Below, piece after piece: positions 24,234 through 32,669 of a stretch of DNA of 33,614 nt (the stretch's first letter is position 1; every line of letters starts with the position of its first letter). The notes under the pieces were generated by a model. The model was not told the origin of the DNA, searched no databases, and saw only the letters and a list, made by a program, of their open reading frames with translations. Source of the stretch: a virus. The position numbers were made by a program, and so were the translations under genes. The DNA lies in IMG/VR virus record IMGVR_UViG_3300045988_133854, positions 1 through 33,614 of that record; one strand, given 5' to 3'.

Positions 24234-24659
24234 ATGCCAAGAAGCGAAGAAGAAGAGGGTGACGGCTTTAACGCAACAATCACCGAGATGCTGAACACTT
24301 TTATAGCCCAGTGGGGTGACACTACAAGGAGGCTGCAGGAGAGCAGCGAGGACAGGCTCGACAGGGTCAACAAGATGGCCGAGGCGCTGTGCGACGCCGT
24401 GGAGCGCACTTCCCAGACGGCCAGCGCTCACGGCGACATCTGCCGGCTCACACTGGTCGCCGCCGAGGAGAGGATAGCCTCCCTGAGGGCGGACAGGGAC
24501 AGGTGCCGGAGGCTCCTCGAGGACAGTCAGCGGGAGGTGATCCGCCTGACCGACCTGACGGAGGCGATGCAGCGCCTTTTCGAGGAGGTCGTCCGCGAGC
24601 TCGCCCGGCAGGGAGGGAACACGACGACAATAGGCAACTTGTCAGGGACAACAATCTAA
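24234..24659 (+). CDS. Coiled-coil protein co-oriented with the repressor (141 aa)
   Basis: ATG ORF 35 nt after the repressor stop. Charged helical sequence. Its C-terminal 'GNTTTIGNLSGTTI' echoes the repressor linker. Confidence 0.6.
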   Translation: MPRSEEEEGDGFNATITEMLNTFIAQWGDTTRRLQESSEDRLDRVNKMAEALCDAVERTSQTASAHGDICRLTLVAAEERIASLRADRDRCRRLLEDSQREVIRLTDLTEAMQRLFEEVVRELARQGGNTTTIGNLSGTTI

Positions 24660-24672
24660 AAAACGTAAAGAT

Positions 24673-24933
24673 ATGGGAGATCTTTTAGCAATTCTCTTTG
24701 CTATTATTACAGCCGTAGCATTTGCGGCTGGTCTTTATTATTTAATCTTCGGAAAACTCATCAGTGGGCTGATGGGTTTCAGCAGCGTTGCCCGAGAATG
24801 GAAGAGCGAGGACAAGCAGAAGGTGAACCTGATGAGGTCGCTCGGCTTTGTCGCCGGAGGGCTTGTGAACCTGCTCATCTTCCTTACAATAGCGCTGGTC
24901 ATCGGCGTCATCGTCGCAATAATCCCGAAATAA
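24673..24933 (+). CDS. Small integral membrane protein (86 aa, 3 TM segments), lysogeny-block gene
   Basis: 'LLAILFAIITAVAFAAGLYYLIF', 'LISGLMGF' and 'FVAGGLVNLLIFLTIALVIGVIVAII'. Confidence 0.6.
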   Translation: MGDLLAILFAIITAVAFAAGLYYLIFGKLISGLMGFSSVAREWKSEDKQKVNLMRSLGFVAGGLVNLLIFLTIALVIGVIVAIIPK

Positions 24934-24952
24934 CATGATATGACCGGTCGAT

Positions 24953-24984
24953 AATTCGGGACTGAAATTCGGGACTAAACAAAA
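24953..24984 (+). repeat. Left arm-type repeat pair AATTCGGGACT(x2)+AAACAAAA
   Basis: AATTCGGGACT at 24953-63 and 24966-76. The same pair plus tail recurs at 25205-25234. Confidence 0.85.
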
Positions 24985-25029
24985 TTGAATGCGCAAATAA
25001 TTAAAAACCAATAATTTATAAGTCCGATT

Positions 25030-25078
25030 TTCGGCTTCCCAAGCCGAAGGTCACGAGTTCGAGCCTCGCATTCCGCTC
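25030..25078 (+). tRNA. Partial tRNA-Gly(CCC)-like segment (anticodon arm to 3' acceptor strand); probable attP core
   Basis: Anticodon stem TCGGC/GCCGA with loop TTCCCAA. T-arm ACGAG-TTCGAGC-CTCGC with one mismatch. 3' acceptor ATTCCGC. No matching 5' acceptor (GCGGAAT) or D-arm lies upstream. Confidence 0.6.
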
Positions 25079-25085
25079 AATAACC

Positions 25086-25129
25086 AAGGGCGATGATAAT
25101 CAATTATTTAGGTTAAATCATCAGCCCTT
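25086..25129 (+). terminator. Stem-loop downstream of the tRNA fragment (12-bp stem with one bulge) followed by a T-rich tract
   Basis: AAGGGCGATGAT ... ATCATCAGCCCTT, then 'atttctttg'. Confidence 0.45.
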
Positions 25130-25204
25130 ATTTCTTTGCTAAAACTAAAATTTTACCCCAAAAATCGGGCGCAAAGTGTGACATTTTGTGACAAAATAAG
25201 GCCA

Positions 25205-25234
25205 AATTCGGGACTAATTCGGGACTAAACAAAA
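25205..25234 (+). repeat. Right arm-type repeat pair AATTCGGGACT(x2)+AAACAAAA
   Basis: AATTCGGGACT at 25205-15 and 25216-26, ending 8 nt before the integrase ATG. Confidence 0.85.
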
Positions 25235-25241
25235 CAACGCT

Positions 25242-26450
25242 ATGGCAAAAGTATCGTATTATCTCAAAAACGTCAAGGCGGGCGACGAAGCGCCGCTCTA
25301 CCTGAAAATATCACACGACTACAAAAGCGCCCTCCTCCTCGTGGGCAAGATCAGGCCGGAGGACTGGGACGCGGAGCACCAGACCTACACGGGCCGCAAC
25401 TTCGGGCTCAGGACACACATCAAGAGCCTCGCCACGCAGGCGGTGGACATCATCACGGATCTGCGCTACTCCGGGGAACTCGCCACGATGACCGCCGGGG
25501 ACATCGTCGGGCGGATCAGGCAGGAGGCTTTCGGGGAAAAACCCAAGAAGAAGGGCGGGGATTTCCTCAACGCCCTCAAGGACTACCGCGACAATTGCTT
25601 CAAGCCGGGCACGCGTGAGGTATATGACCGCACGGTCAAGGCGCTCACAGCCTTTGACGCATCAATTGACGAAAGGTCATTCAACGACATCAACCGCGCC
25701 TATCTGGAGCGGTTTGAACGTCATTGCAGGGATACAATGACAATCAACTCCATCGCCATTCTGCTGCGCAACATCCGCACGGTCTTCAACAAGGCCATAG
25801 ATGATGGCAAAACCGACTTCTACCCTTTCCGCGCCTTTAAGATCAAACAGGAGGAGACAAGGAAGAGGGCACTCACCGCCGAACAGCTTGCGTGGCTCAT
25901 TAATATGGAGCCGTGCTTCGGATATGAGGAAGCAAGGGACATATTCCTGCTTTTGTTCTATCTTATCGGAATCAACATCGCCGACCTTGTCGCGGCAAAA
26001 AAGACCTCTGTAAAAAACGGTTACCTCAACTACAGGCGCGCCAAGACGGGGCGGCTGTATTCCGTGAAAATCGAGCCGGAAGCGGCTGCGATAATAAAGA
26101 AATATGCGGGCGCAACGCATCTTGTCAACGGCCTTGAACGCTATGCCACCGAAAACTCCTACCTGTCAAAAATCAACAAGCGGCTGAAATATTTAGGATG
26201 TCCGCGGGGTAAGCGCGGCAAGATCTTAGGCGAAGGACGTTTCGCGGATTTGTCAACCTACTGGTCACGCCATACCTGGGCGACCATCGCCTACGAGATA
26301 GGCATTCCGGTTGACATAATCGGCCAGGCTCTGGGACATTCAGACAAGTCGCACAGCGTCACATTCATCTACATCAAGGAAGACCAAAGCAAGGTGGACG
26401 AGGCGAACAGGCGGGTGATCGATTACATAAAGAAAATGGCGGGCCAATAG
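25242..26450 (+). CDS. int: Tyrosine-type site-specific integrase (Bacteroidota phage-integrase architecture, 402 aa)
   Basis: N-terminal arm-binding-like region, SAM-like core-binding region, and C-terminal 'WSRHTWATIAYEIGIPVDIIGQALGHSD...TFIYIK' (R, H and the Tyr nucleophile). Lies adjacent to the tRNA fragment. Confidence 0.92.
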   Translation: MAKVSYYLKNVKAGDEAPLYLKISHDYKSALLLVGKIRPEDWDAEHQTYTGRNFGLRTHIKSLATQAVDIITDLRYSGELATMTAGDIVGRIRQEAFGEKPKKKGGDFLNALKDYRDNCFKPGTREVYDRTVKALTAFDASIDERSFNDINRAYLERFERHCRDTMTINSIAILLRNIRTVFNKAIDDGKTDFYPFRAFKIKQEETRKRALTAEQLAWLINMEPCFGYEEARDIFLLLFYLIGINIADLVAAKKTSVKNGYLNYRRAKTGRLYSVKIEPEAAAIIKKYAGATHLVNGLERYATENSYLSKINKRLKYLGCPRGKRGKILGEGRFADLSTYWSRHTWATIAYEIGIPVDIIGQALGHSDKSHSVTFIYIKEDQSKVDEANRRVIDYIKKMAGQ

Positions 26451-26480: not shown

Positions 26481-26798
26481 CTATTCAAATTTCGCCGCTT
26501 CAATCTCATCGGCGTGCGCTTGCAGTCGTTTGGCAATGTCCCTGAAAGCCTCAGCCAACTGGTGATATTCGTCCTCCTTGAAGGACATTGATTTGTTCAG
26601 CACCCAGCAGCCGTTAAGGCGTTGCGAGAACCAGCTTTGTGACCTGCCGAAATATTGCTTCGCCAGCTGCGACTTGTTAAGAATATCTTCCAATTCACTG
26701 AAAGCAGTGGCTGTCGCATCGGGCTTGTATTCGATGCACTTTTTACGGCGTTCCTCGTATTCAGCGGGATTTAAAATTTTCCTTTTGCCCAAATACAT
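26481..26798 (-). CDS. DUF5053-like protein (105 aa)
   Basis: 'LAKQYFGRSQSWFSQRLNGCWVLNKSMSFKEDEYHQLAEAFRDIAKRL' matches my recollection of the Bacteroidota DUF5053 pattern. Confidence 0.65.
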   Translation of the reverse strand: MYLGKRKILNPAEYEERRKKCIEYKPDATATAFSELEDILNKSQLAKQYFGRSQSWFSQRLNGCWVLNKSMSFKEDEYHQLAEAFRDIAKRLQAHADEIEAAKFE

Positions 26799-26839
26799 AA
26801 TTTGTTGTAAATTTACCCCCGAGAAATCGGGGGCTTTGG

Positions 26840-26965
26840 TTAAACTTCGTCCTTGAGAGCATTAAGGAGGCCCTCAATTCTCCTTATGATCGATTGATTG
26901 GCCGGAGTTTCGATCAGTTCAAGCAGTCTGAAAATCTGACCAATCAATCTCTTTTTATAACTCAT
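26840..26965 (-). CDS. Possible 41-aa ORF (MSYKKRLIGQIFRLLELIETPANQSIIRRIEGLLNALKDEV)
   Basis: Hand translated. AT-rich context. Too short to be confident. Confidence 0.3.
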   Translation of the reverse strand: MSYKKRLIGQIFRLLELIETPANQSIIRRIEGLLNALKDEV

Positions 26966-27051
26966 TTCATTTTCACACCTCCTTTATTTTGTTGATACAA
27001 AGATACATAATAATTTTATTATATGCAAGTATTTTATGATTATTTATTAAT

Positions 27052-27088
27052 AAAAAAAACTACACGTGAACCACACGTGTAGTTTTTA
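27052..27088. terminator. Bidirectional rho-independent terminator
   Basis: A-run, then 10-bp perfect stem ACTACACGTG / CACGTGTAGT (27059-68 / 27074-83) with a 5-nt loop, then a T-run. Lies immediately after the RHH gene stop at 27091. Confidence 0.7.
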
Positions 27089-27090
27089 AC

Positions 27091-27258
27091 TCACATCTTC
27101 GCTACCATTTCGTCCACGCACCGCCCAATCGAAAAGCCCGTCCTTCTGAGCTCGTCGATGCGTCTTCTGGTCTCCGGCTTAATCTTGATCGTGTACGGGA
27201 CTTTCGGGGCGTCGCCCGAAGGCTTGCGCCCCGCCCCTGCCCTTTTACCTCCTCTCAT
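27091..27258 (-). CDS. Ribbon-helix-helix (CopG/Arc-like) DNA-binding protein (55 aa, not in the ORF track)
   Basis: Hand translation gives MRGGKRAGAGRKPSGDAPKVPYTIKIKPETRRRIDELRRTGFSIGRCVDEMVAKM*. It has a beta-strand then two helices. Its ATG overlaps the upstream TGA (ATGA). Confidence 0.55.
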   Translation of the reverse strand: MRGGKRAGAGRKPSGDAPKVPYTIKIKPETRRRIDELRRTGFSIGRCVDEMVAKM

Positions 27259-27485
27259 AGCAACTCACTGTGATTTTCAAAAAGCCAATCTGCCATTAAC
27301 CTCATCACGCGCGCCAACTGCGCCGGGCTTTCAGGCCCGAGCGTCAGGCCGTCAGGCCATGCCGCGCTCTGCGTGTCGTTGAAGCGGCTACCTGTCCATG
27401 TCACCGACACGCCAGTTACACTGTCGATGCAATGCCAGGCGTTGTCTACGCCTGGCACCCGCGATAATAAATATCTCTCACTCAT
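27255..27485 (-). CDS. Small acidic hypothetical protein (76 aa)
   Basis: ATG ORF, middle gene of a three-gene operon. Nine D/E against five K/R. Confidence 0.55.
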   Translation of the reverse strand: MSERYLLSRVPGVDNAWHCIDSVTGVSVTWTGSRFNDTQSAAWPDGLTLGPESPAQLARVMRLMADWLFENHSELL

Positions 27486-27491
27486 AAGGCT

Positions 27492-27692
27492 TTACTCCCA
27501 CCATGCGAAGATGTCGCCGTCGTTAGTTCTATAAGCTTGAACCTCGCCGCTCCAGCACAGGGCTTCGCCGCCGAAGCTGTCATAGTCTATTTCTAGATTG
27601 CTACGGGTGTCCGCTGTTGATAAATAACCAGTCTTGCCGCTTTCTTTAAGTGCCCTCTGGGCATCATCTTGTGTTCTGTAAAGTGTCCTCAT
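27492..27692 (-). CDS. Small acidic hypothetical protein (66 aa)
   Basis: ATG ORF, first gene of the operon. Roughly twice as many D/E as K/R. Confidence 0.55.
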   Translation of the reverse strand: MRTLYRTQDDAQRALKESGKTGYLSTADTRSNLEIDYDSFGGEALCWSGEVQAYRTNDGDIFAWWE

Positions 27693-27717
27693 AACTCTTA
27701 GTGTTTTTTTGTTTATG

Positions 27718-27725
27718 CAAATATA
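27718..27725 (-). promoter_or_regulatory. Bacteroidota-type -7 promoter box TATATTTG (TAnnTTTG)
   Basis: Reverse complement of 'caaatata', 26 nt upstream of the ATG at 27692, in an AT-rich gap. Confidence 0.4.
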
Positions 27726-27879
27726 GTAATAATTTTTGAATTTAGTACACTTTTTTCAAAAAAAAGACAAGAAAAATGCCGACGACATCAGGACGAGGTC
27801 GCCAGCACTCAAAAGCATTGTTTACCAGATCAGCAGTCCGGACAGCCGCCGAACTTCGGTATAGGCCTGTATCCCGGCA

Positions 27880-28206
27880 TCACTGGTGCCGGTCTTGGCT
27901 CCTTTCTGTTCCCCTTTGGGGGCTCCTTTCCGCTATCCTTTTCCATAGCCTGTCATAGATTTCAGCGAGCTTGTAGAAGGCAAGTCCGAGCCAGTCGCAG
28001 AGGTAGGCAAGCGGCAGGGCGGCAAGCGCCGACTGCAAGGCGGGGACACCGCTCAGGATCATAACCACAAGCACCGTCCAGAATACCGAGCACCGCTGGC
28101 ACGCCGCTACCTCCGAGACCACCTCCACAACTTTCCCCACAAGCCCGAGGTGATGGGCAAGGGCGGTGATGACCGCCACCGCCAAAGCCGTGATCATCCA
28201 CCCCAT
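27880..28206 (-). CDS. Integral membrane protein (108 aa, about 3 TM)
   Basis: 'MITALAVAVITALAHHL', 'VFWTVLVVMILSGV' and 'ALAALPLAYLCDWLGLAF', then a basic tail. Confidence 0.6.
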   Translation of the reverse strand: MGWMITALAVAVITALAHHLGLVGKVVEVVSEVAACQRCSVFWTVLVVMILSGVPALQSALAALPLAYLCDWLGLAFYKLAEIYDRLWKRIAERSPQRGTERSQDRHQ

Positions 28207-28210
28207 ATCG

Positions 28211-28639
28211 TCAGGCCACCGTGAGCGTCAGAGGGGTCTCCGACACGAACGTCCTACCGCACGACTGGCATCCGGTCACGGACACGGCGTTGACCGTGTT
28301 CCCGGCCGCCACCGTGACCGATGTCGGAGCCGTGGCGGACGCGAAAGGGATCGTGAACGTCTGCGACACCGTCTCCGTCCTGGAGCAGCATCCGTCCGTG
28401 CCGCAAGGGTTGTAGCAGATGCACCCCTGCACCCTCACCACGGCCACGTACTGGCCCGTACCTACCTGCGAGAACCCCACGAGCGAGAACGCCGGGGCGA
28501 ACACCGGGGTATTCGAGGCGCACACCGGACGGCAGAGCCGCTTCGTGATGTTCGCCATCACATAGTACGGAGAGGCGGCCGACCCGGCCGCGAGCGTGGC
28601 TGTTATCCTCGCCACGTTGCTGTTTTTGCAATTAGACAT
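28211..28639 (-). CDS. Cys-rich beta-rich protein of unknown function (142 aa, 10 Cys)
   Basis: 'CRPVC', 'GCICYNPCGTDGCC' and 'GCQSC'. No family recognised. Confidence 0.6.
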   Translation of the reverse strand: MSNCKNSNVARITATLAAGSAASPYYVMANITKRLCRPVCASNTPVFAPAFSLVGFSQVGTGQYVAVVRVQGCICYNPCGTDGCCSRTETVSQTFTIPFASATAPTSVTVAAGNTVNAVSVTGCQSCGRTFVSETPLTLTVA

Positions 28640-28657
28640 GACTCTCGTTGTTTTGTG

Positions 28658-28882
28658 TTACGCTTCCTGTTCCTGTCCGTCACCACCTTCTTCCGCCGTT
28701 CCGTCCCCGCAAGCGGAAGCGCATTGCTCCGGGAACTCGACAGGCGCTAGGTTGAGCGCGTCAAGTCTGGCAAGAACGACACCGAGGTTCTCCGAGAGGA
28801 CAACCACATTGTCGTTGACTGCCTTGATCGCGTACATCATCTGCTCGAAGATGTTCTTCGGCTGTTGCTGCTGCTCGTTCAT
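28658..28882 (-). CDS. Hypothetical protein (74 aa) with acidic tail
   Basis: The ATG overlaps the upstream stop (ATGA). Ends 'CASACGDGTAEEGGDGQEQEA'. Confidence 0.5.
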   Translation of the reverse strand: MNEQQQQPKNIFEQMMYAIKAVNDNVVVLSENLGVVLARLDALNLAPVEFPEQCASACGDGTAEEGGDGQEQEA

Positions 28883-29070
28883 CGCTTCAGAAAATCAGTG
28901 ACAAGGAAGCCCCCGCCGAACCGCCTCAGCGCGTCCGAGAGTTTTGAGGCCGTGACCAGGACACCCTTGCGGTACTGCCCGTCCACGAATCCGTGGAGAT
29001 CCTTTTCAAGGGATCTCGCCTCGTCTTCGCTCTCCGCGTAGACGTAGAACTGAACCTTCACCGGCTTCAT
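28879..29070 (-). CDS. Hypothetical protein (63 aa)
   Basis: ATG 29070 shares one nt with the upstream TGA (TGATG). Confidence 0.5.
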   Translation of the reverse strand: MKPVKVQFYVYAESEDEARSLEKDLHGFVDGQYRKGVLVTASKLSDALRRFGGGFLVTDFLKR

Positions 29071-29414
29071 CACGCGTCAGGTATCGGAGGTGCCGCGGGG
29101 ATTGAGGACGCGGTCTGGGCCGCGCCTCCTCCCTTCAGCGACCTTATGATCTGATACCCCTTCATTATGTCCTCGCCGTGGTTCTGGATCCACCCGAATA
29201 CCTCGTCGGCTCCGTTCCTGATCCTCTCGAAGGCGGAGGGTTCCACCGGATCGAAGTCCGGCAGCTCCATCCCGTCGGAGATGAACCCGTAGAGTTCCTG
29301 GGCCTCCCTTATGTCATTGCCGCACGCGGCGAGACACGAGAGTTTGAGCGACATCTTTGATGTGGTCCTGAGCTTCGTCATATCGACAGTTCTCTTTCTG
29401 AAAAGGTCCGGCAT
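29070..29414 (-). CDS. Hypothetical protein (114 aa)
   Basis: ATG ORF, second gene of the tightly packed operon. No family recognised. Confidence 0.55.
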   Translation of the reverse strand: MPDLFRKRTVDMTKLRTTSKMSLKLSCLAACGNDIREAQELYGFISDGMELPDFDPVEPSAFERIRNGADEVFGWIQNHGEDIMKGYQIIRSLKGGGAAQTASSIPAAPPIPDA

Positions 29415-29437
29415 AAGGCTTCTCCCGTCAGGTCAGA

Positions 29438-29917
29438 CTATCCGTTGCAGGTGTCGCAGCCGCAAGGCTGAGGCGCGCTGTACCGGGCCACCTTCAGGAA
29501 ACTGTCGGTGCCGATCGCGCTGTTCAGCCCGTTGCTGTTGAGAGCCGCCGCAAGTGCCACGGCATCAGCCACCGCGCTTGACGTTGACTGCGCCTGAGGG
29601 GCTGCCTGAACGTCCACATACTGCCTGACGGTCGGGGCGTTGGTGTTCTGCCAGCTTTCGCGAGAGGCCCTCTCGGCGAGAAGCACGCTGGTCAGGTTGG
29701 CCACGGCCGCGGCGTTCGCGTTGACGCTAGCCTGCGCGCCCTCGGATCTGGCCTTGCTGGCCTGATTGACACCCCAGATTCCGGCGATGGCGAGGAGAAG
29801 CGCTCCGCCGCCGAGGCCGGCCGCGAGGCCGATGCCGGTGGCCGCCATTCCGCGTCCCTGGTGCTTGCATCCCTCTTCCCTTCGGTCGAGGAGATAAGGT
29901 AAAAGATTGTCGTCCAT
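29438..29917 (-). CDS. Single-pass Gly-zipper membrane protein with C-terminal CGCDTC motif (159 aa)
   Basis: ATG at 29917; the track start at 29923 is a TTG. TM 'GIGLAAGLGGGALLLAIAGIWGV'. Ala/Asn/Ser-rich ectodomain. Ends 'PQPCGCDTCNG'. Confidence 0.6.
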   Translation of the reverse strand: MDDNLLPYLLDRREEGCKHQGRGMAATGIGLAAGLGGGALLLAIAGIWGVNQASKARSEGAQASVNANAAAVANLTSVLLAERASRESWQNTNAPTVRQYVDVQAAPQAQSTSSAVADAVALAAALNSNGLNSAIGTDSFLKVARYSAPQPCGCDTCNG

Positions 29918-30047
29918 GATCAAAATGGATTATAGATTTTCCCGCCTCTTGAAGCCTTCGGCGGCATTGGCGCGGTCTTCTGACCGCTTCCGCAAACCTA
30001 CCCTTTTTGCCTCCGTTAATTAAGAAAGCAGTTCCTTTCCCGTTCCC

Positions 30048-30359
30048 TTAATTTTCCCCGTTCGTTCCGTTTCCGTTCCGCCTCGCCTCTACGCGCCTCA
30101 GGCACATCTCCAGCCCCGGCGAGTTGTCCGCCCTCGACCGGAACGAGCCTATCATCTTGCGGACCGCGCGCCCGCTGACGTGCAGCCTCTCGGCTATCAT
30201 CCCCGGATAATAGCCGCTCCTCCTGAGCGTCACCACGAGCAGGTGCCTCGCGTCCACGATCTCCTCACTCTTGGACTTCGACATTATGTCGCGCTCCGAA
30301 ATCCCCGTGACCTCGCACACGTCACGCAGGACGCTGGCGAATATCTCTGACTTTATCAT
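30048..30359 (-). CDS. DnaA-domain-IV-like HTH protein (103 aa), candidate regulator
   Basis: 'SKSKSEEIVDARHLLVVTLRRSGYYPGMIAERLHVSGRAVRKMI' resembles the DnaA C-terminal DNA-binding helix pattern. Confidence 0.55.
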   Translation of the reverse strand: MIKSEIFASVLRDVCEVTGISERDIMSKSKSEEIVDARHLLVVTLRRSGYYPGMIAERLHVSGRAVRKMIGSFRSRADNSPGLEMCLRRVEARRNGNGTNGEN

Positions 30360-30472: not shown

Positions 30473-30495
30473 GCGTGCGGAGAAAGCACGCACGC
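30473..30495 (-). terminator. Weak terminator-like hairpin after the 170-aa gene
   Basis: Minus strand: GCGTGCG-9 nt-CGCACGC, followed by CUCUUUG. The U-tract is poor. Confidence 0.3.
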
Positions 30496-31007
30496 TAAAG
30501 CCGGAGATAGAGCCCTCCGGTCACGCCAAGTCCGACGTTGACTTTGCCGGAAGGCGCGACGAGCACGGACGGCCCGACAGCCACTCCGAAGCCCCACCTT
30601 TTCGGCTCGATGGAATATCCCTTCGTTACGATCTTGGTCTGCGGATATACTTTGACATACTCCAGCTCCGTCCGGAACCCGCTTACGCCGATGTCGTAGT
30701 TGTCGCCACGGTAGCGGCTGAACACTATCGGCACCTCGACCTCCACCGTGTCGTGGACCACGACAGTGTCCGGAGGCTGTGCCACCGCGAGCCGCACCGT
30801 GTCAACCCTCACCGTCCTGACCTCCGTAACGACAGGCCTGTAATCTACGGCAGTGTCCCTGACGGTCACAGTGTCCACACGCTCCAGAAGAGGGCGCGTG
30901 ACGCTCCGCCTTCCGCCGAGGAAGCCGAGTCCCAGGGCGAGCAGCAGCGCGGCCACGAACAACAAGGTTGTTTTCGGTTGTTTTCGGTTGTTTTCGGTTG
31001 TTGTCAT
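30495..31007 (-). CDS. Signal-anchored beta-rich envelope protein (170 aa); spanin-like or outer-membrane-directed candidate
   Basis: N-terminal TM 'TLLFVAALLLALGLGFLGG'. C-terminal Gly-rich beta strands ending 'GLGVTGGLYLRL'. Lies near the lysis cassette. Confidence 0.6.
   Translation of the reverse strand: MTTTENNRKQPKTTLLFVAALLLALGLGFLGGRRSVTRPLLERVDTVTVRDTAVDYRPVVTEVRTVRVDTVRLAVAQPPDTVVVHDTVEVEVPIVFSRYRGDNYDIGVSGFRTELEYVKVYPQTKIVTKGYSIEPKRWGFGVAVGPSVLVAPSGKVNVGLGVTGGLYLRL
30966..31005 (-). repeat. 10-bp tandem repeat (GGTTGTTTTC x3 plus one variant copy) abutting the start codon
   Basis: Copies at 30966, 30976, 30986 and 30996 (GGTTGTTGTC). The ATG occupies 31005-31007. Confidence 0.95.
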
Positions 31008-31238: not shown

Positions 31239-31658
31239 TCACCGCCTCACGCCTCCGAGCCTGTCAGCCCACCGCTCCGTCCAGAAGTGGGTGTAAGGCT
31301 TATACTTTTTCTTCCCGCAAAGGTCGTAGTGGACGGCGGCGTGGCAGAGTGACTGCAAGCCTATCAGCGGAATGTACAAAGGCCCGAGCATCCTCGACTG
31401 CCTGACGTGGCCGAACTCGTGATCCACAGTGTCGTGGCTCGCGAACCAGTTCAGCACGACGAACTCGCCGAGAGCCAAGGCCTTTCCGCTCCCGATCGAG
31501 GATGTCCGCAGATACCTGACCCCGCGGATGAGCTGACGGCTTGATTTCCCCATCGCCTTCCTATCGTAATACATCCACACCGCCTGCCCGGCGATGTTCT
31601 GCGGCAGCTGCCACGCCCACAGAAGAACGTAGGCCGCTTTCTTTAGTAAATCTCTCAT
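31239..31658 (-). CDS. HExxH-motif protein, putative Zn-metallopeptidase (139 aa)
   Basis: 'HDTVDHEFGHVRQSRMLGPLY' with a hydrophobic N-terminus 'AAYVLLWAWQLPQNIAG'. Confidence 0.55.
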   Translation of the reverse strand: MRDLLKKAAYVLLWAWQLPQNIAGQAVWMYYDRKAMGKSSRQLIRGVRYLRTSSIGSGKALALGEFVVLNWFASHDTVDHEFGHVRQSRMLGPLYIPLIGLQSLCHAAVHYDLCGKKKYKPYTHFWTERWADRLGGVRR

Positions 31659-31711: not shown

Positions 31712-32146
31712 TCAGAGCCTTTGTCCCTTGTACCGCCTGTTGTAGAGCAGTTGCCGCCGCTGCGGCCCTCCCCTGCGATGGCTGATGTGTACGAAATCAG
31801 GATAGAGGATCATCTGGTCTACCTCCCTCCAGATATCCGGCGTGTCCCTGACAACCTTCGCCAGCAGGTATGGGGCAGCCGCGGCTATGTCCGCCGCCTC
31901 CCCCTTGACGTGCTGCGAGGTGGCCACCCCTCCCACCGCCCTGTTGAGATCCGGGCATCGGTAGCCGCTGTTGATCCGCAGCGGATGCCCAACCCTGTCA
32001 CGGAGCGGCTGGAGAACCGTATCCACAAGCTCCTTCACCGCGTCGCGCACCGCCGCTGTCGTTATCACGTTGCAGATGCCCCCGCGCTCCGCCGTCTGCG
32101 AGGCCTCGAACTCGCGGTAACTGAAATCCTTACTGATTGTCCCCAT
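31712..32146 (-). CDS. Endolysin, peptidase M15 (D-Ala-D-Ala / L-Ala-D-Glu peptidase fold, 144 aa)
   Basis: 'INSGYRCPDLNRAVGGVATSQHVKGEAADI' and 'FVHISH' zinc ligand pattern. Overlaps the holin gene by 17 nt. Confidence 0.88.
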   Translation of the reverse strand: MGTISKDFSYREFEASQTAERGGICNVITTAAVRDAVKELVDTVLQPLRDRVGHPLRINSGYRCPDLNRAVGGVATSQHVKGEAADIAAAAPYLLAKVVRDTPDIWREVDQMILYPDFVHISHRRGGPQRRQLLYNRRYKGQRL

Positions 32147-32669
32147 CGTCTTTTGCCTCCTTTTTGTTTTCCCATTCTCCTTTCTCGATGCTGACCGCCC
32201 CTTCGATGTTCGCCCCTGTCTTTGCCTGGACGACGGCCTCGATGACCTTCGCCGCGTCCACCTTCACCTTCGCCTTGTGGCCGAACTTCCAGAAGTACCA
32301 GTTCTGAGCGATGGAGATCAGCTCCACGCCGATGACCACGAGCATCAGCCCCGTCTCGATGATGGTGTAGCCCGTCGCCACGGCGAGGCTGGAGGCCAGC
32401 ACCGCCCAGCAGAAGTACTCCACCGCCTTTCCTATCGTGCGCCTTATTGCCCGGCTTATCCTGATCCGGTCGCCCTTGCGCCGGGCGGCCCTGATGCCGA
32501 ACACGAGGTCGATCAGGATGACCACGGCGGCGATGACGAGGTATGGTAGCATCCTCTCGAATGATTGCTGGAAAAACAACAACAAAGTGGCCGATATGCC
32601 CGTGCCGACCACGACACTCCCCGCGGAAGCCTCGTCCGAGAGGATGTGGGCGTTGAAACCGTCCGTCAT
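32130..32669 (-). CDS. Holin (phage_holin_4-like, 179 aa)
   Basis: Three to four TM helices. 'VILIDLVFGIRAARRKGDRIRISRAIRRTIGKAVEY' resembles the LL-H-type holin core. Lies immediately upstream of the endolysin. Confidence 0.72.
   Translation of the reverse strand: MTDGFNAHILSDEASAGSVVVGTGISATLLLFFQQSFERMLPYLVIAAVVILIDLVFGIRAARRKGDRIRISRAIRRTIGKAVEYFCWAVLASSLAVATGYTIIETGLMLVVIGVELISIAQNWYFWKFGHKAKVKVDAAKVIEAVVQAKTGANIEGAVSIEKGEWENKKEAKDDGDNQ

What the first reader, a model, noticed from the sequence alone, without database searches (positions are those of the whole stretch)
27880..29917. Six-gene, tightly coupled operon of membrane and Cys-cluster proteins with no recognisable family: candidate uncharacterised system
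Downstream of a DnaA-domain-IV-like HTH gene (30048..30359) lie six co-directional genes with minimal or overlapping junctions (TGATG at 29070, ATGA at 28879-82, gaps of 4-23 nt):
- a 159-aa single-pass Gly-zipper membrane protein ending 'PQPCGCDTCNG'
- three soluble proteins of 114, 63 and 74 aa, the last ending 'CASACGDG' plus an acidic tail
- a 142-aa beta-rich protein with 10 cysteines ('CRPVC', 'GCICYNPCGTDGCC', 'GCQSC')
- a 108-aa 3-TM protein

I recognise none of them. The block has backbone-like GC content, so it is not a recent import. It lies between the lysis cassette and the integrase-proximal cargo, where temperate phages keep morons, exclusion and conversion functions. It is not needed to complete the virion, packaging, replication or lysis gene sets, all of which are accounted for elsewhere. 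Recurrent Cys clusters together with two membrane proteins suggest an envelope-located, metal-binding or disulfide-bonded complex.
Basis: inference. Interest (0 to 1): 0.65.

Follow-up and report, generated by a model that had tools for sequence, protein, structure and literature searches.

The report
Conserved seven-gene phage membrane operon

Summary
Six co-directional, coupled genes lie at 27880-29917 on the minus strand. A seventh gene of 38 aa (27830-27946) starts inside the conserved Leu-Trp codons of the sixth.

The operon has its own Bacteroidetes-type promoter element and a two-hairpin leader. A DnaA-domain-IV-like HTH gene always lies directly upstream.

No protein matches Pfam, PHROGs, NCBIfam, PADLOC or PDB sequences. 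The confident AlphaFold model of the 142-aa beta protein has no Foldseek match.

The block recurs, colinear, in 82 of 105 diverged loci from Bacteroidales phages and prophages. There are three cassette variants, and the flanking genes are swapped freely. It always sits at the end of the late region, beside the lysis genes.

Conserved Cys pairs occur in five subunits. When the 3-TM protein is absent, the seventh protein lacks its CxxC.

Best reading: a membrane-anchored, probably metal-bridged complex that serves the phage's own late cycle, most likely lysis or egress control (about 0.3). The main rival is superinfection exclusion or defence (about 0.25). No function was shown.

The parts
30048..30359 (-). 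HTH gene (103 aa), DnaA-domain-IV / LuxR-type. It is the constant upstream partner of the operon.
   Evidence: Pfam Bac_DnaA_C has E 3.9e-6, but 27.2 bits is below the 31.5 cut-off. The family profile hits DnaA domain IV (2z4r, E 7e-5) and ComA-C (E 2e-5) in the PDB. Homologues lie directly upstream of g1 in all three cassette variants.
29993..30000 (-). TAGGTTTG, a Bacteroidetes -7-type promoter element (TAnnTTTG) 76 nt upstream of the g1 ATG.
   Evidence: It is one of only 9 such motifs on the minus strand. The intergenic ones precede the early operon and the cargo genes, and none precedes the structural genes. A TTTG element occupies the same position in most related loci.
29972..29987 (-). 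Leader hairpin 1 (GCGGTC-agaa-GACCGC), starting a few nt after the promoter element.
   Evidence: A stable hairpin sits at this position in most of 26 non-redundant loci, with unrelated stem sequences. Twelve of 26 have z below -1.5, and several more were mis-anchored by the script. It could act as RNA or as a DNA inverted repeat. This was not resolved.
29942..29964 (-). Leader hairpin 2 (CCGCC-GAAGGCTTCAAGA-GGCGG), preceded by CCAAT. The purine-rich loop GAAG...AAGA is conserved.
   Evidence: In 13 diverged leaders, 89% of cells are paired, against 34-52% when the partners are slid. Three of 5 pairs change on both sides, and 0 of 500 shuffles reach the covariation score. There is no Rfam match.
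29438..29917 (-). g1 (159 aa), the bitopic membrane anchor. It has a Gly-zipper TM (residues 24-50), a long helix, an Ala/Asn-rich region and a C-terminal ...RYSAPQPCGCDTCNG.
   Evidence: ORF and hydropathy. The family has at least 1265 clusters, all unnamed. C152 and C154 are invariant and C157 is at least 90% conserved. AlphaFold2 gives only a helix at 37-93, with pLDDT 54.
29070..29414 (-). g2 (114 aa), soluble. Conserved motifs are TSKxSLKxSCLxAC, LPDFD, FGW and a C-terminal PPIP.
   Evidence: Alignment of 30 diverged homologues. No Pfam, PHROG or NCBIfam match, and no convincing PDB match: the only hits at E <= 0.01 were a designed helical bundle and viral nucleoproteins. Its stop overlaps the g3 start as TGATG.
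28879..29070 (-). g3 (63 aa), a small soluble protein.
   Evidence: Colinear homologues in 82 loci, median identity 49%. ATGA overlap with g4.
28658..28882 (-). g4 (74 aa), with a helical N-terminal part and an acidic tail. It is the least conserved member.
   Evidence: Found by tblastn in 57 loci, median identity 34%. In variant 3 and in L123 the protein at this position carries an N-terminal CxxxCxxC...C cluster instead.
28211..28639 (-). g5 (142 aa), an all-beta Cys-rich protein. It is the most conserved member and the marker of the module.
   Evidence: At least 505 unnamed clusters. Median identity is 60% across loci. C40, C84 and C124 are invariant, and C36, C79, C85 and C127 are at least 90% conserved. 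AlphaFold2 gives pLDDT 82.7, pTM 0.75 and eight long strands. Foldseek finds no match in the PDB or BFVD (best E 0.03, TM at most 0.33). A whole-library HMM search finds only 73 representatives, all small proteins of the same type plus two weak repeat-protein hits.
27880..28206 (-). g6 (108 aa), a 3-TM protein with invariant His19, Cys36-x-x-Cys39, Trp43, Tyr68 and Trp88, and a basic C-terminal tail. Its architecture resembles a class I holin.
   Evidence: Alignment of 28 homologues and hydropathy. About 180 unnamed clusters. No PDB or Pfam match.
27830..27946 (-). g7 (38 aa, MEKDSGKEPPKGNRKEPRPAPVMPGYRPIPKFGGCPDC), the seventh gene. Its ATG lies inside the conserved Leu-Trp codons of g6, and it overlaps g6 by 67 nt.
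   Evidence: Coordinates. The C-terminal motif Y[KRQ]P[LVI]P[KR]F-x(1-3)-C-x-x-C is present in 51 of 53 distinct g6 loci. Thirty-eight of 40 distinct versions start at the embedded ATG. It was called as a 51-aa gene in an independent assembly, L134.

Best explanation
WHAT IT IS (shown). The finding is an autonomous seven-gene operon, g1 to g7, with a dedicated HTH gene upstream. In most relatives a DUF7841 gene lies downstream. It belongs to the conserved backbone of a large group of temperate tailed phages of gut Bacteroidales.

WHAT IT ENCODES (sequence-based). There are two integral membrane proteins: g1, bitopic, and g6, with three TM segments. There are five small proteins without signal peptides: g2, g3, g4, g7 and g5, a beta-protein that matches no solved or predicted structure in the libraries searched.

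HOW THE PARTS FIT (inferred).
- The subunits assemble into one complex at the cytoplasmic membrane.
- Conserved Cys pairs contributed by different subunits hold it together: g1 CxCxxC, g2 CxxxC, g5 CxxxC...CC...CxxC, g6 H...CxxC and g7 CxxC.
- In a strictly anaerobic host, and on proteins without export signals, these most likely bind a metal such as zinc.
- g6 and g7 form one such shared site.
- The constant C-terminal [D/E]-T-C tail of the anchor protein docks onto the constant partner g5.

WHAT IT DOES (inferred, low confidence). The complex serves the phage's own late cycle at the membrane. Most likely it sets or modulates the lysis or egress step. g6 would act as a class-I-type holin or holin partner, and the other subunits would control when it triggers.

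The confidence of 0.3 applies to this functional claim. That the operon is a real, conserved unit I hold at about 0.9.
For: Unit and conservation:
- The genes are colinear in 82 of 105 diverged loci, and g5 keeps 53-70% identity.
- Within 8 kb on either side, almost nothing else is shared with the window except a 24-36% identical integrase.
- There are three cassette variants. Their first genes show no significant profile similarity to one another, but keep the same architecture and the same [D/E]-T-C C-terminus.
- A 25%-identical g5 still sits in the same cassette.

Coupling:
- Overlapping stops and starts.
- The g7 start is embedded in g6 codons in 38 of 40 versions.

Own promoter and leader.

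Cys pattern:
- Conservation is shown.
- The four loci without g6 (two different cassette variants) keep g7, but without its CxxC.

Link to lysis:
- The module is adjacent to an endolysin in 55 loci, on either side. In 44 the endolysin is upstream, mostly 2.2-3.9 kb away, and in 11 it is downstream.
- It behaves as a separate module that stays next to the lysis module when their order is swapped.
- g6 has the textbook class I holin layout: about 90-108 aa, three TM segments, and a basic cytoplasmic tail.
- In L063 and L123, g6 is the only small multi-TM ORF near the endolysin.
- The variant-3 anchor protein gives weak hits to three Rz-like spanin PHROGs (E 0.004-0.08).

Core rather than cargo: variable genes sit in slots beside the block, not within it. 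These are a Tad2-like gene, a 1937-aa protein, and the 139-aa HExxH protein encoded at window 31239-31658.
Against: - No experiment or profile hit links any subunit to lysis.
- The window already has a holin-like gene directly upstream of its endolysin and a DUF6808 spanin candidate, so lysis looks complete without the block.
- Adjacency to lysis genes may only reflect that both modules sit at the end of the late region. In 60 loci my limited endolysin set found none.
- The host-type promoter resembles those of the cargo and early genes, not of late genes. This fits prophage expression.
- A natural variant, L004 with six similar contigs, has lost the promoter, g1 and the HTH C-terminus. At least g1 is therefore dispensable for persistence of the prophage.
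- The topology of g1 is ambiguous: 4 K/R residues before the TM and 2 after it.
- Metal binding was not tested.
- The g1 model is poor.
- No known lysis system has seven such subunits.
Confidence: 0.3

Rival explanations
1. Prophage-expressed envelope function. The complex sits in the inner membrane of the lysogen. It either blocks DNA entry of superinfecting phages (superinfection exclusion) or acts as a membrane-based abortive-infection or defence system. The HTH protein regulates its promoter.
For: - It has its own host-type promoter like those of the cargo genes, a structured leader, and an inverted repeat at the transcription start that could be an operator.
- In the window and in many relatives it lies within 2-3 kb of the integrase end of the prophage.
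- It has two membrane proteins.
- g1 is dispensable in a circulating variant.
- Every carrier that could be judged looks temperate, with an integrase or an Ant anti-repressor.
Against: - No PADLOC hit.
- Its GC matches the backbone.
- It is conserved in layout and sequence well beyond the integrase, while its neighbours vary. This is the opposite of the patchy, fast-turnover pattern of known prophage defence and exclusion genes. That comparison rests on established knowledge, not on a test here.
- Known exclusion systems are one or two proteins.
- In most relatives the operon runs straight on into DUF7841 and lysis genes.
Confidence: 0.25
2. Virion-associated or morphogenetic proteins encoded at the end of the structural operon. 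They could be ejection or pilot proteins that form a channel in the next host, or an assembly platform for tail parts.
For: - The block follows tail genes in the same orientation.
- g5 is conserved like a structural protein, and has a segment resembling an Fn3 F-G hairpin.
- g1 is disordered on its own, like ejection proteins.
Against: - No PHROG, Pfam or BFVD structural hit.
- g6 has three strongly hydrophobic TM segments and would insert into the producer's membrane.
- It has its own promoter and HTH gene.
- The window has a full HK97-type head and tail gene set elsewhere.
Confidence: 0.1
3. Host takeover at the membrane. The complex binds and modulates a conserved host membrane machine, such as cell division, cell-wall synthesis, transport or redox/metal homeostasis. 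Zinc-thiolate or Fe-S sites would act as a redox or oxygen sensor.
For: - g5 is unusually conserved, more so than its partners, as expected for a protein that fits a conserved host target.
- CxC plus CxxC motifs, and CxxxCxxC in variant g4 proteins, recall zinc redox switches and Fe-S sites. This resemblance is from memory and was not tested.
Against: No homology to any known effector, no host partner identified, and nothing specific in the context.
Confidence: 0.12
4. Not a system: a run of unrelated small phage genes that merely travel together.
For: - Small unknown genes are common in phages.
- Insertions are tolerated between members: HicAB in L113, and a 309-aa gene in L033 and L096.
Against: - Fixed order across three variants.
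- Translational coupling and an embedded start codon.
- A shared Cys theme.
- Correlated loss of g6 and the g7 CxxC.
Confidence: 0.03

Closest known systems
Class I holins (lambda S105 type) and multi-gene lysis cassettes with regulators (lambda S107/S105, T4 T/RI/RIII, P1 lydA-E, Mu genes 19-25). From my own knowledge.
   Same: g6 is 90-108 aa, with three TM segments (topology inferred as N-out/C-in) and a basic cytoplasmic tail. The module stays beside the endolysin. It encodes small accessory proteins that could tune triggering.
   Different: - No sequence or profile similarity to any holin family.
- g6 has an invariant H...CxxC.
- The window has a separate holin-like gene next to its endolysin.
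- Seven subunits, including a conserved beta-protein with no structural match, have no counterpart.
Rz-type i-spanins
   Same: g1 and its positional equivalents have an N-terminal TM, a long helix, a linker, a second helix and C-terminal cysteines, in about 150-180 aa. The variant-3 protein gives weak PHROG hits to Rz-like spanins.
   Different: - No partner lipoprotein (o-spanin) gene lies within or after g1.
- The window protein gives no hit.
- A DUF6808 protein with a lipobox and a C-terminal TM in relatives already looks like a unimolecular spanin.
Prophage morons and superinfection-exclusion membrane proteins (lambda lom/bor, HK97 gp15, T4 Imm, P22 SieA). From my own knowledge.
   Same: Its own promoter, a position at the end of the late region near the integrase, and membrane proteins.
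   Different: Backbone GC, seven coupled genes, and deep conservation with a fixed layout rather than patchy distribution. No homology.
Zinc-thiolate switch proteins (Hsp33 CxC...CxxC, the RsrA ZAS motif). From my own knowledge.
   Same: Terminal CxC/CxxC motifs on proteins in a reducing compartment.
   Different: Here the motifs are spread over five different small subunits. There is no homology, and metal binding was not tested.

Membership tests
Class I holin | Small protein (under about 150 aa) with three TM segments, N-out/C-in, and a charged basic C-terminal tail. | tested here: met
   g6 is 108 aa with three hydrophobic stretches and the tail KRIAERSPQRGTERSQDRHQ. The same layout holds in 28 homologues. 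The topology is inferred from charge distribution only.
Class I holin | Sequence membership in a described holin family. | tested here: not met
   No Pfam, PHROG or NCBIfam hit for g6 at E <= 0.05. The profile has no PDB relative.
Class I holin | The gene lies directly beside the endolysin gene. | tested here: inconclusive
   In the window another holin-like gene (32130-32669) holds that position, and g6 is 3.5 kb away. In L063 and L123, g6 is the only small multi-TM ORF near the endolysin.
Class I holin | Lethal, timed hole formation that releases the endolysin. | not testable with these tools
   Needs expression and lysis curves.
Two-component spanin (Rz/Rz1) | i-spanin: N-terminal TM followed by a periplasmic coiled-coil domain. 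| tested here: inconclusive
   The TM is at residues 24-50, and the AlphaFold helix at 37-93 has low confidence. The orientation is ambiguous. Only the variant-3 protein gives weak Rz-like hits.
Two-component spanin (Rz/Rz1) | A partner o-spanin: a small outer-membrane lipoprotein gene with a lipobox, embedded in or following the i-spanin gene. | tested here: not met
   The only alternative-frame ORF on the coding strand inside g1 (47 aa) has no signal peptide. The 'LAAC' in g2 lacks a hydrophobic h-region and lies in a conserved polar motif.
Known anti-phage defence systems | A profile match of at least one component to a described system. | tested here: not met
   PADLOC gives no hits for g1-g6 or the HTH protein. 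g7 was identified later and was not scanned.
Moron (autonomous cargo unit in a prophage) | Own promoter and terminator. | tested here: inconclusive
   The promoter element is present and conserved. The scan found no terminator after g7. There is only a T-rich tract, and in most relatives DUF7841 follows directly.
Moron (autonomous cargo unit in a prophage) | Atypical composition and patchy distribution among related phages. | tested here: not met
   GC is 0.61-0.62, like the backbone. The layout is kept in 82 of 105 diverged loci.
Virion structural proteins | A profile or fold match to head, tail or ejection protein families. | tested here: not met
   PHROGs and Pfam give no hits. Foldseek of g5 against BFVD and the PDB gives no match. 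Proteomics is not available.
DnaA domain IV / LuxR-type HTH (upstream gene only) | A profile match to the four-helix DNA-binding domain. | tested here: inconclusive
   Bac_DnaA_C has E 3.9e-6 but scores below the gathering cut-off. The family profile hits DnaA structures at E 7e-5 to 1.4e-3 and ComA-C at 2e-5.

The most novel reading that the evidence does not exclude
The operon encodes a previously undescribed kind of phage membrane machine. Seven small subunits, built on a beta-protein with no known structural relative, are stitched together by inter-subunit metal-thiolate sites. Its role, for example redox- or metal-gated control of lysis or of DNA entry in strictly anaerobic hosts, has no counterpart among known lysis, exclusion or defence systems.
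Probability: 0.3. Interest if true: 0.8.

Novelty: new variant of a known kind. Interest (0 to 1): 0.6.

Why it matters
Bacteroidales are among the most abundant bacteria of the human gut, and their temperate phages are almost unstudied. This module is one of the most conserved features of a large group of them. The g1 family has at least 1265 protein clusters and the g5 family at least 505, and the module is absent from 50,697 GenBank phage records.

None of its seven proteins has even a 'domain of unknown function' entry. The genes on both sides of the module, DUF6808 upstream and (in relatives) DUF7841 downstream, do.

Working out its role would fill a gap in how these phages leave or protect their hosts. 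It would also give an experimentally tractable case of a multi-subunit complex apparently held together by shared Cys sites, and add a beta protein with no structural match to structural catalogues. If it controls lysis timing or phage exclusion, it bears on prophage induction and phage therapy in the gut.

Tried and rejected
1. Family assignment. Pfam, PHROGs, NCBIfam and PADLOC were run on g1-g6 and their neighbours, and Pfam and PHROGs on the variant proteins. Nothing reached significance.

2. Profile searches against PDB sequences for g1, g2, g5 and g6 gave no convincing relative. The g2 profile's only hits at E <= 0.01 were a designed helical bundle and viral nucleoproteins.

3. Structure.
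- The g5 model is good, but Foldseek against the PDB and BFVD gave only noise. The top hits are secretin barrels with TM below 0.2. I rejected 'secretin-like', 'OmpX/Lom-like barrel' and 'jelly-roll capsid protein'.
- The g1 model is too poor to search, so the third Foldseek job was not used.

4. Known phages. blastn of the block and tblastn of g5 and g1 against 50,697 GenBank phage records gave no match. TerL is at most about 35% identical to cultured phages.

5. Literature. 'DUF6808', 'DUF7841' and an Alistipes prophage query gave nothing useful. The BV01/Salyersviridae paper does not mention such a block.

6. Hidden o-spanin in or after g1: none found.

7. Embedded small virus. Microvirus-like and inovirus-like readings were considered because of the small membrane proteins. 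I rejected them because there is no capsid, Zot or replication gene.

8. RiPP or bacteriocin cluster: rejected, because there is no modifying enzyme, transporter or leader-core pattern.

9. Rfam search for the leader: no hit.

10. Search for relatives that have the HTH gene but lack the block. The alignment was too diverse for the pattern scan. Alignment A2 failed the same way.

11. Homology between the three kinds of first gene by hhalign: not significant. I treat them as positional equivalents.
Full report
**1. The observation**

The window is a temperate HK97-type tailed phage. It encodes TerS and TerL, a portal, a protease, a major capsid protein, a collagen-like fibre, a holin-like protein, an M15 endolysin and an integrase. 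Flanking genes in identical prophage copies are SusC/SusD, BACON and FecR-ECF genes, which places it in Bacteroidota.

The block has backbone GC of 0.61-0.62. The 23-28 kb region next to the integrase has 0.48-0.54.

**2. A seventh gene**

A seventh gene, g7 (27830-27946, 38 aa), was missed. Its ATG lies inside the codons for the conserved Leu-Trp of g6 (cTATGGaa), and it overlaps g6 by 67 nt in another frame.

- Its C-terminal motif Y-[KRQ]-P-[LVI]-P-[KR]-F-x(1-3)-C-x-x-C is present in 51 of 53 distinct g6-containing loci.
- Thirty-eight of 40 distinct versions start at the embedded ATG.
- An independent gene caller called it in L134.

**3. The operon's own signals**

A TAGGTTTG element (TAnnTTTG, the Bacteroidetes -7 box by established knowledge) lies 76 nt upstream of g1. 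Only nine such motifs occur on this strand. The intergenic ones precede the early operon and the two cargo units, and none precedes the structural genes.

- A TTTG element, then a hairpin of variable sequence, sits at the same place in most relatives.
- Many leaders have a second hairpin, CGCC-GAAGGnnnnAAGA-GGCG, after a CCAAT. In 13 diverged leaders 89% of its cells are paired, against 34-52% for slid controls, and three of five pairs change on both sides.
- Rfam has nothing like it.

**4. No known family**

Pfam, PHROGs, NCBIfam and PADLOC give nothing for g1-g6. Profiles of g1, g2, g5 and g6 find no convincing PDB relative. The only hits at E <= 0.01, for g2, are a designed helical bundle and viral nucleoproteins.

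- g5 folds with confidence (pLDDT 82.7, pTM 0.75) into eight long beta strands. It matches nothing in the PDB or BFVD; the best hits have E 0.03 and TM at most 0.33.
- A library-wide HMM search finds only 73 representatives. All are 120-160-aa proteins of the same type, apart from weak hits to two repeat proteins.
- g1 alone is predicted as a long helix (37-93) with the rest disordered, at pLDDT 54.
- Neither the block nor g5 or g1 is found in 50,697 GenBank phage records.
- The upstream gene is a DnaA-domain-IV / LuxR-type HTH.

**5. It travels as a unit**

I collected 130 or more loci from IMG/VR, GTDB genomes and metagenomes.

- Of 105 loci with a diverged g5, 82 have at least four of the genes colinear, 77 have g1, g2, g3, g5 and g6, and 54 have all six by tblastn.
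- Median identities are g5 60%, g1 55%, g3 49%, g2 38%, g4 34% and g6 33%.
- Within 8 kb on either side, almost nothing else is shared with the window except an integrase at 24-36% identity.
- Carriers are Alistipes, Tidjanibacter, Cryptobacteroides, Bacteroidaceae and Muribaculaceae MAGs and human or animal gut viral contigs of 30-80 kb.

**6. Three cassette variants**

- Variant 1 is the window type, with g1-g2-g3-g4.
- Variant 2 has a Gly-rich coiled-coil protein ending ...VCDTCC, plus one 150-aa protein in place of g2-g4.
- Variant 3 has a strongly hydrophobic TM/coiled-coil protein ending ...[D/E]TCG, different g2- and g3-like proteins, and a g4 with CxxxCxxC...CC.

The first proteins show no significant profile similarity to one another, yet all end in [D/E]-T-C. 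The constant parts are the HTH gene, that C-terminal tail, g5, g7 and DUF7841. A g5 only 25% identical to the window's still sits in the same cassette.

**7. The cysteine theme**

Conserved Cys or His residues are:

- g1: C152 and C154 invariant, C157 at least 90% conserved.
- g2: the first Cys of SCLxAC at least 90% conserved, the second present in most.
- g5: C40, C84 and C124 invariant; C36, C79, C85 and C127 at least 90% conserved.
- g6: H19, C36 and C39 invariant.
- g7: CxxC.

The four loci that lack g6 come from two variants. They keep g7, but it ends before the CxxC. This points to a site shared between g6 and g7.

Only g1 and g6 have membrane segments, and none of the proteins has a signal peptide. 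With anaerobic hosts, metal binding is more likely than disulfides. This is inference.

**8. Context**

The module always lies at the end of the late region, next to the lysis module.

- It follows the lysis module in the window, L014, L116 and L073.
- It precedes the lysis module in L055, L077, L033, L123 and L134.
- It converges on the lysis module in L063.
- The DUF6808 gene stays with the endolysin. In relatives it has a lipobox and a C-terminal TM, the layout of a unimolecular spanin. This is inference.
- Variable genes occupy slots beside the block.
- L004 and six similar contigs have lost the promoter, g1 and the HTH C-terminus.

**9. Interpretation**

The block is a real, ancient, backbone module that encodes a membrane-anchored complex.

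- The class-I-holin-like form of g6, the Rz-like form of the anchor protein (weak hits), the persistent adjacency to endolysins, and the lack of any other holin candidate in L063 and L123 make a lysis or egress role the best single guess, at about 0.3.
- The host-type promoter, the position near the integrase and the dispensability of g1 keep superinfection exclusion or defence close behind, at about 0.25.
- Structural and host-takeover readings are not excluded.
- Nothing here demonstrates function.

**10. Novelty and score**

Under either leading reading the function is of a known kind. The proteins, the seven-subunit layout, the embedded gene and the shared Cys sites have no precedent that I could find, so I rate it a new variant of a known kind. 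There is a 0.3 chance that it is something categorically new. Interest is 0.6.

Noticed in passing
window 29942-30000 (minus strand); related loci, e.g. L014:6600-6690 and L025:6620-6688: The 5' leader of the operon is conserved. It has a -7-type promoter box, then a hairpin of variable sequence at the transcription start, then CCAAT, then a second hairpin with a conserved purine-rich loop (GAAGGnnnnAAGA). There is no Rfam family for it. It could be an mRNA-stabilising or regulatory RNA, or hairpin 1 could be an operator.
   Followed up: partly
window 30495-31007 (minus strand); L116:5761-6234, L123:10758-11270, L008:7547-8131: The DUF6808 protein travels with the endolysin. In relatives it has a lipoprotein signal (LVAC, LTAC or LSSC), and in L116 and L123 it also has a C-terminal TM segment. 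That is the layout of a unimolecular spanin. The window copy has an N-terminal TM but no lipobox Cys.
   Followed up: partly
window 31239-31658 (minus strand): A 139-aa, very basic protein with an HEFGH (HExxH) motif lies between the endolysin and DUF6808. It matches no family. A related HExxH protein occupies the same slot in L073 and L113.
   Followed up: no
L004:8977-9570 compared with window 29070-30359: A natural deletion variant, otherwise 96-100% identical, has an HTH gene truncated to 76 aa. The promoter, leader and g1 are gone, and a 1937-aa gene is inserted upstream of DUF6808. Six further contigs share this neighbourhood.
   Followed up: partly
L005:7227-7517; L006 and L007:3920-5329: The slot between endolysin and DUF6808 holds a Tad2-like (anti-Thoeris family) gene in one close relative. 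Two relatives carry a 469-aa gene with a faint reverse-transcriptase hit after the collagen-like fibre, possibly a diversity-generating retroelement. No hit for it was seen among the window proteins I scanned.
   Followed up: no
window 26481-27725 (minus strand): The low-GC cargo between the operon and the integrase consists of small genes with their own TAnnTTTG boxes (26998-27005 and 27718-27725). It differs between otherwise identical prophage copies, for example by including DUF5053.
   Followed up: partly
L113:6249-6841; L033:6624-7553; L063:5997-6842: Mobile genes are inserted into or beside the module without breaking it. A pair I read as HicA/HicB from their sequences lies between the HTH gene and the first gene. 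A 309-aa gene lies between g3 and g4. A GIY-YIG homing endonuclease lies just upstream.
   Followed up: no
L008:10999-11220; L091:8532-8729; L062:9324-9512: A 62-73-aa protein with a C-terminal hydrophobic motif (...GI[IL]QN[IV].GN.I.DG.IYLLR..) lies next to DUF7841. In loci without g6 it is the only small membrane protein there.
   Followed up: no
L099, L102, L105, L112 (GTDB genome contigs): Contigs carrying the module are binned into MAGs labelled Mycobacteriaceae, Azospirillum, Dialister and Acutalibacteraceae. These are almost certainly mis-binned phage contigs, not evidence of a wider host range.
   Followed up: no
window 24659-25242: Comparison with integrated copies (L006, L007) places the attachment site in the 580-nt gap upstream of the integrase gene. 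The window is therefore a circularly permuted or excised form of the prophage.
   Followed up: partly
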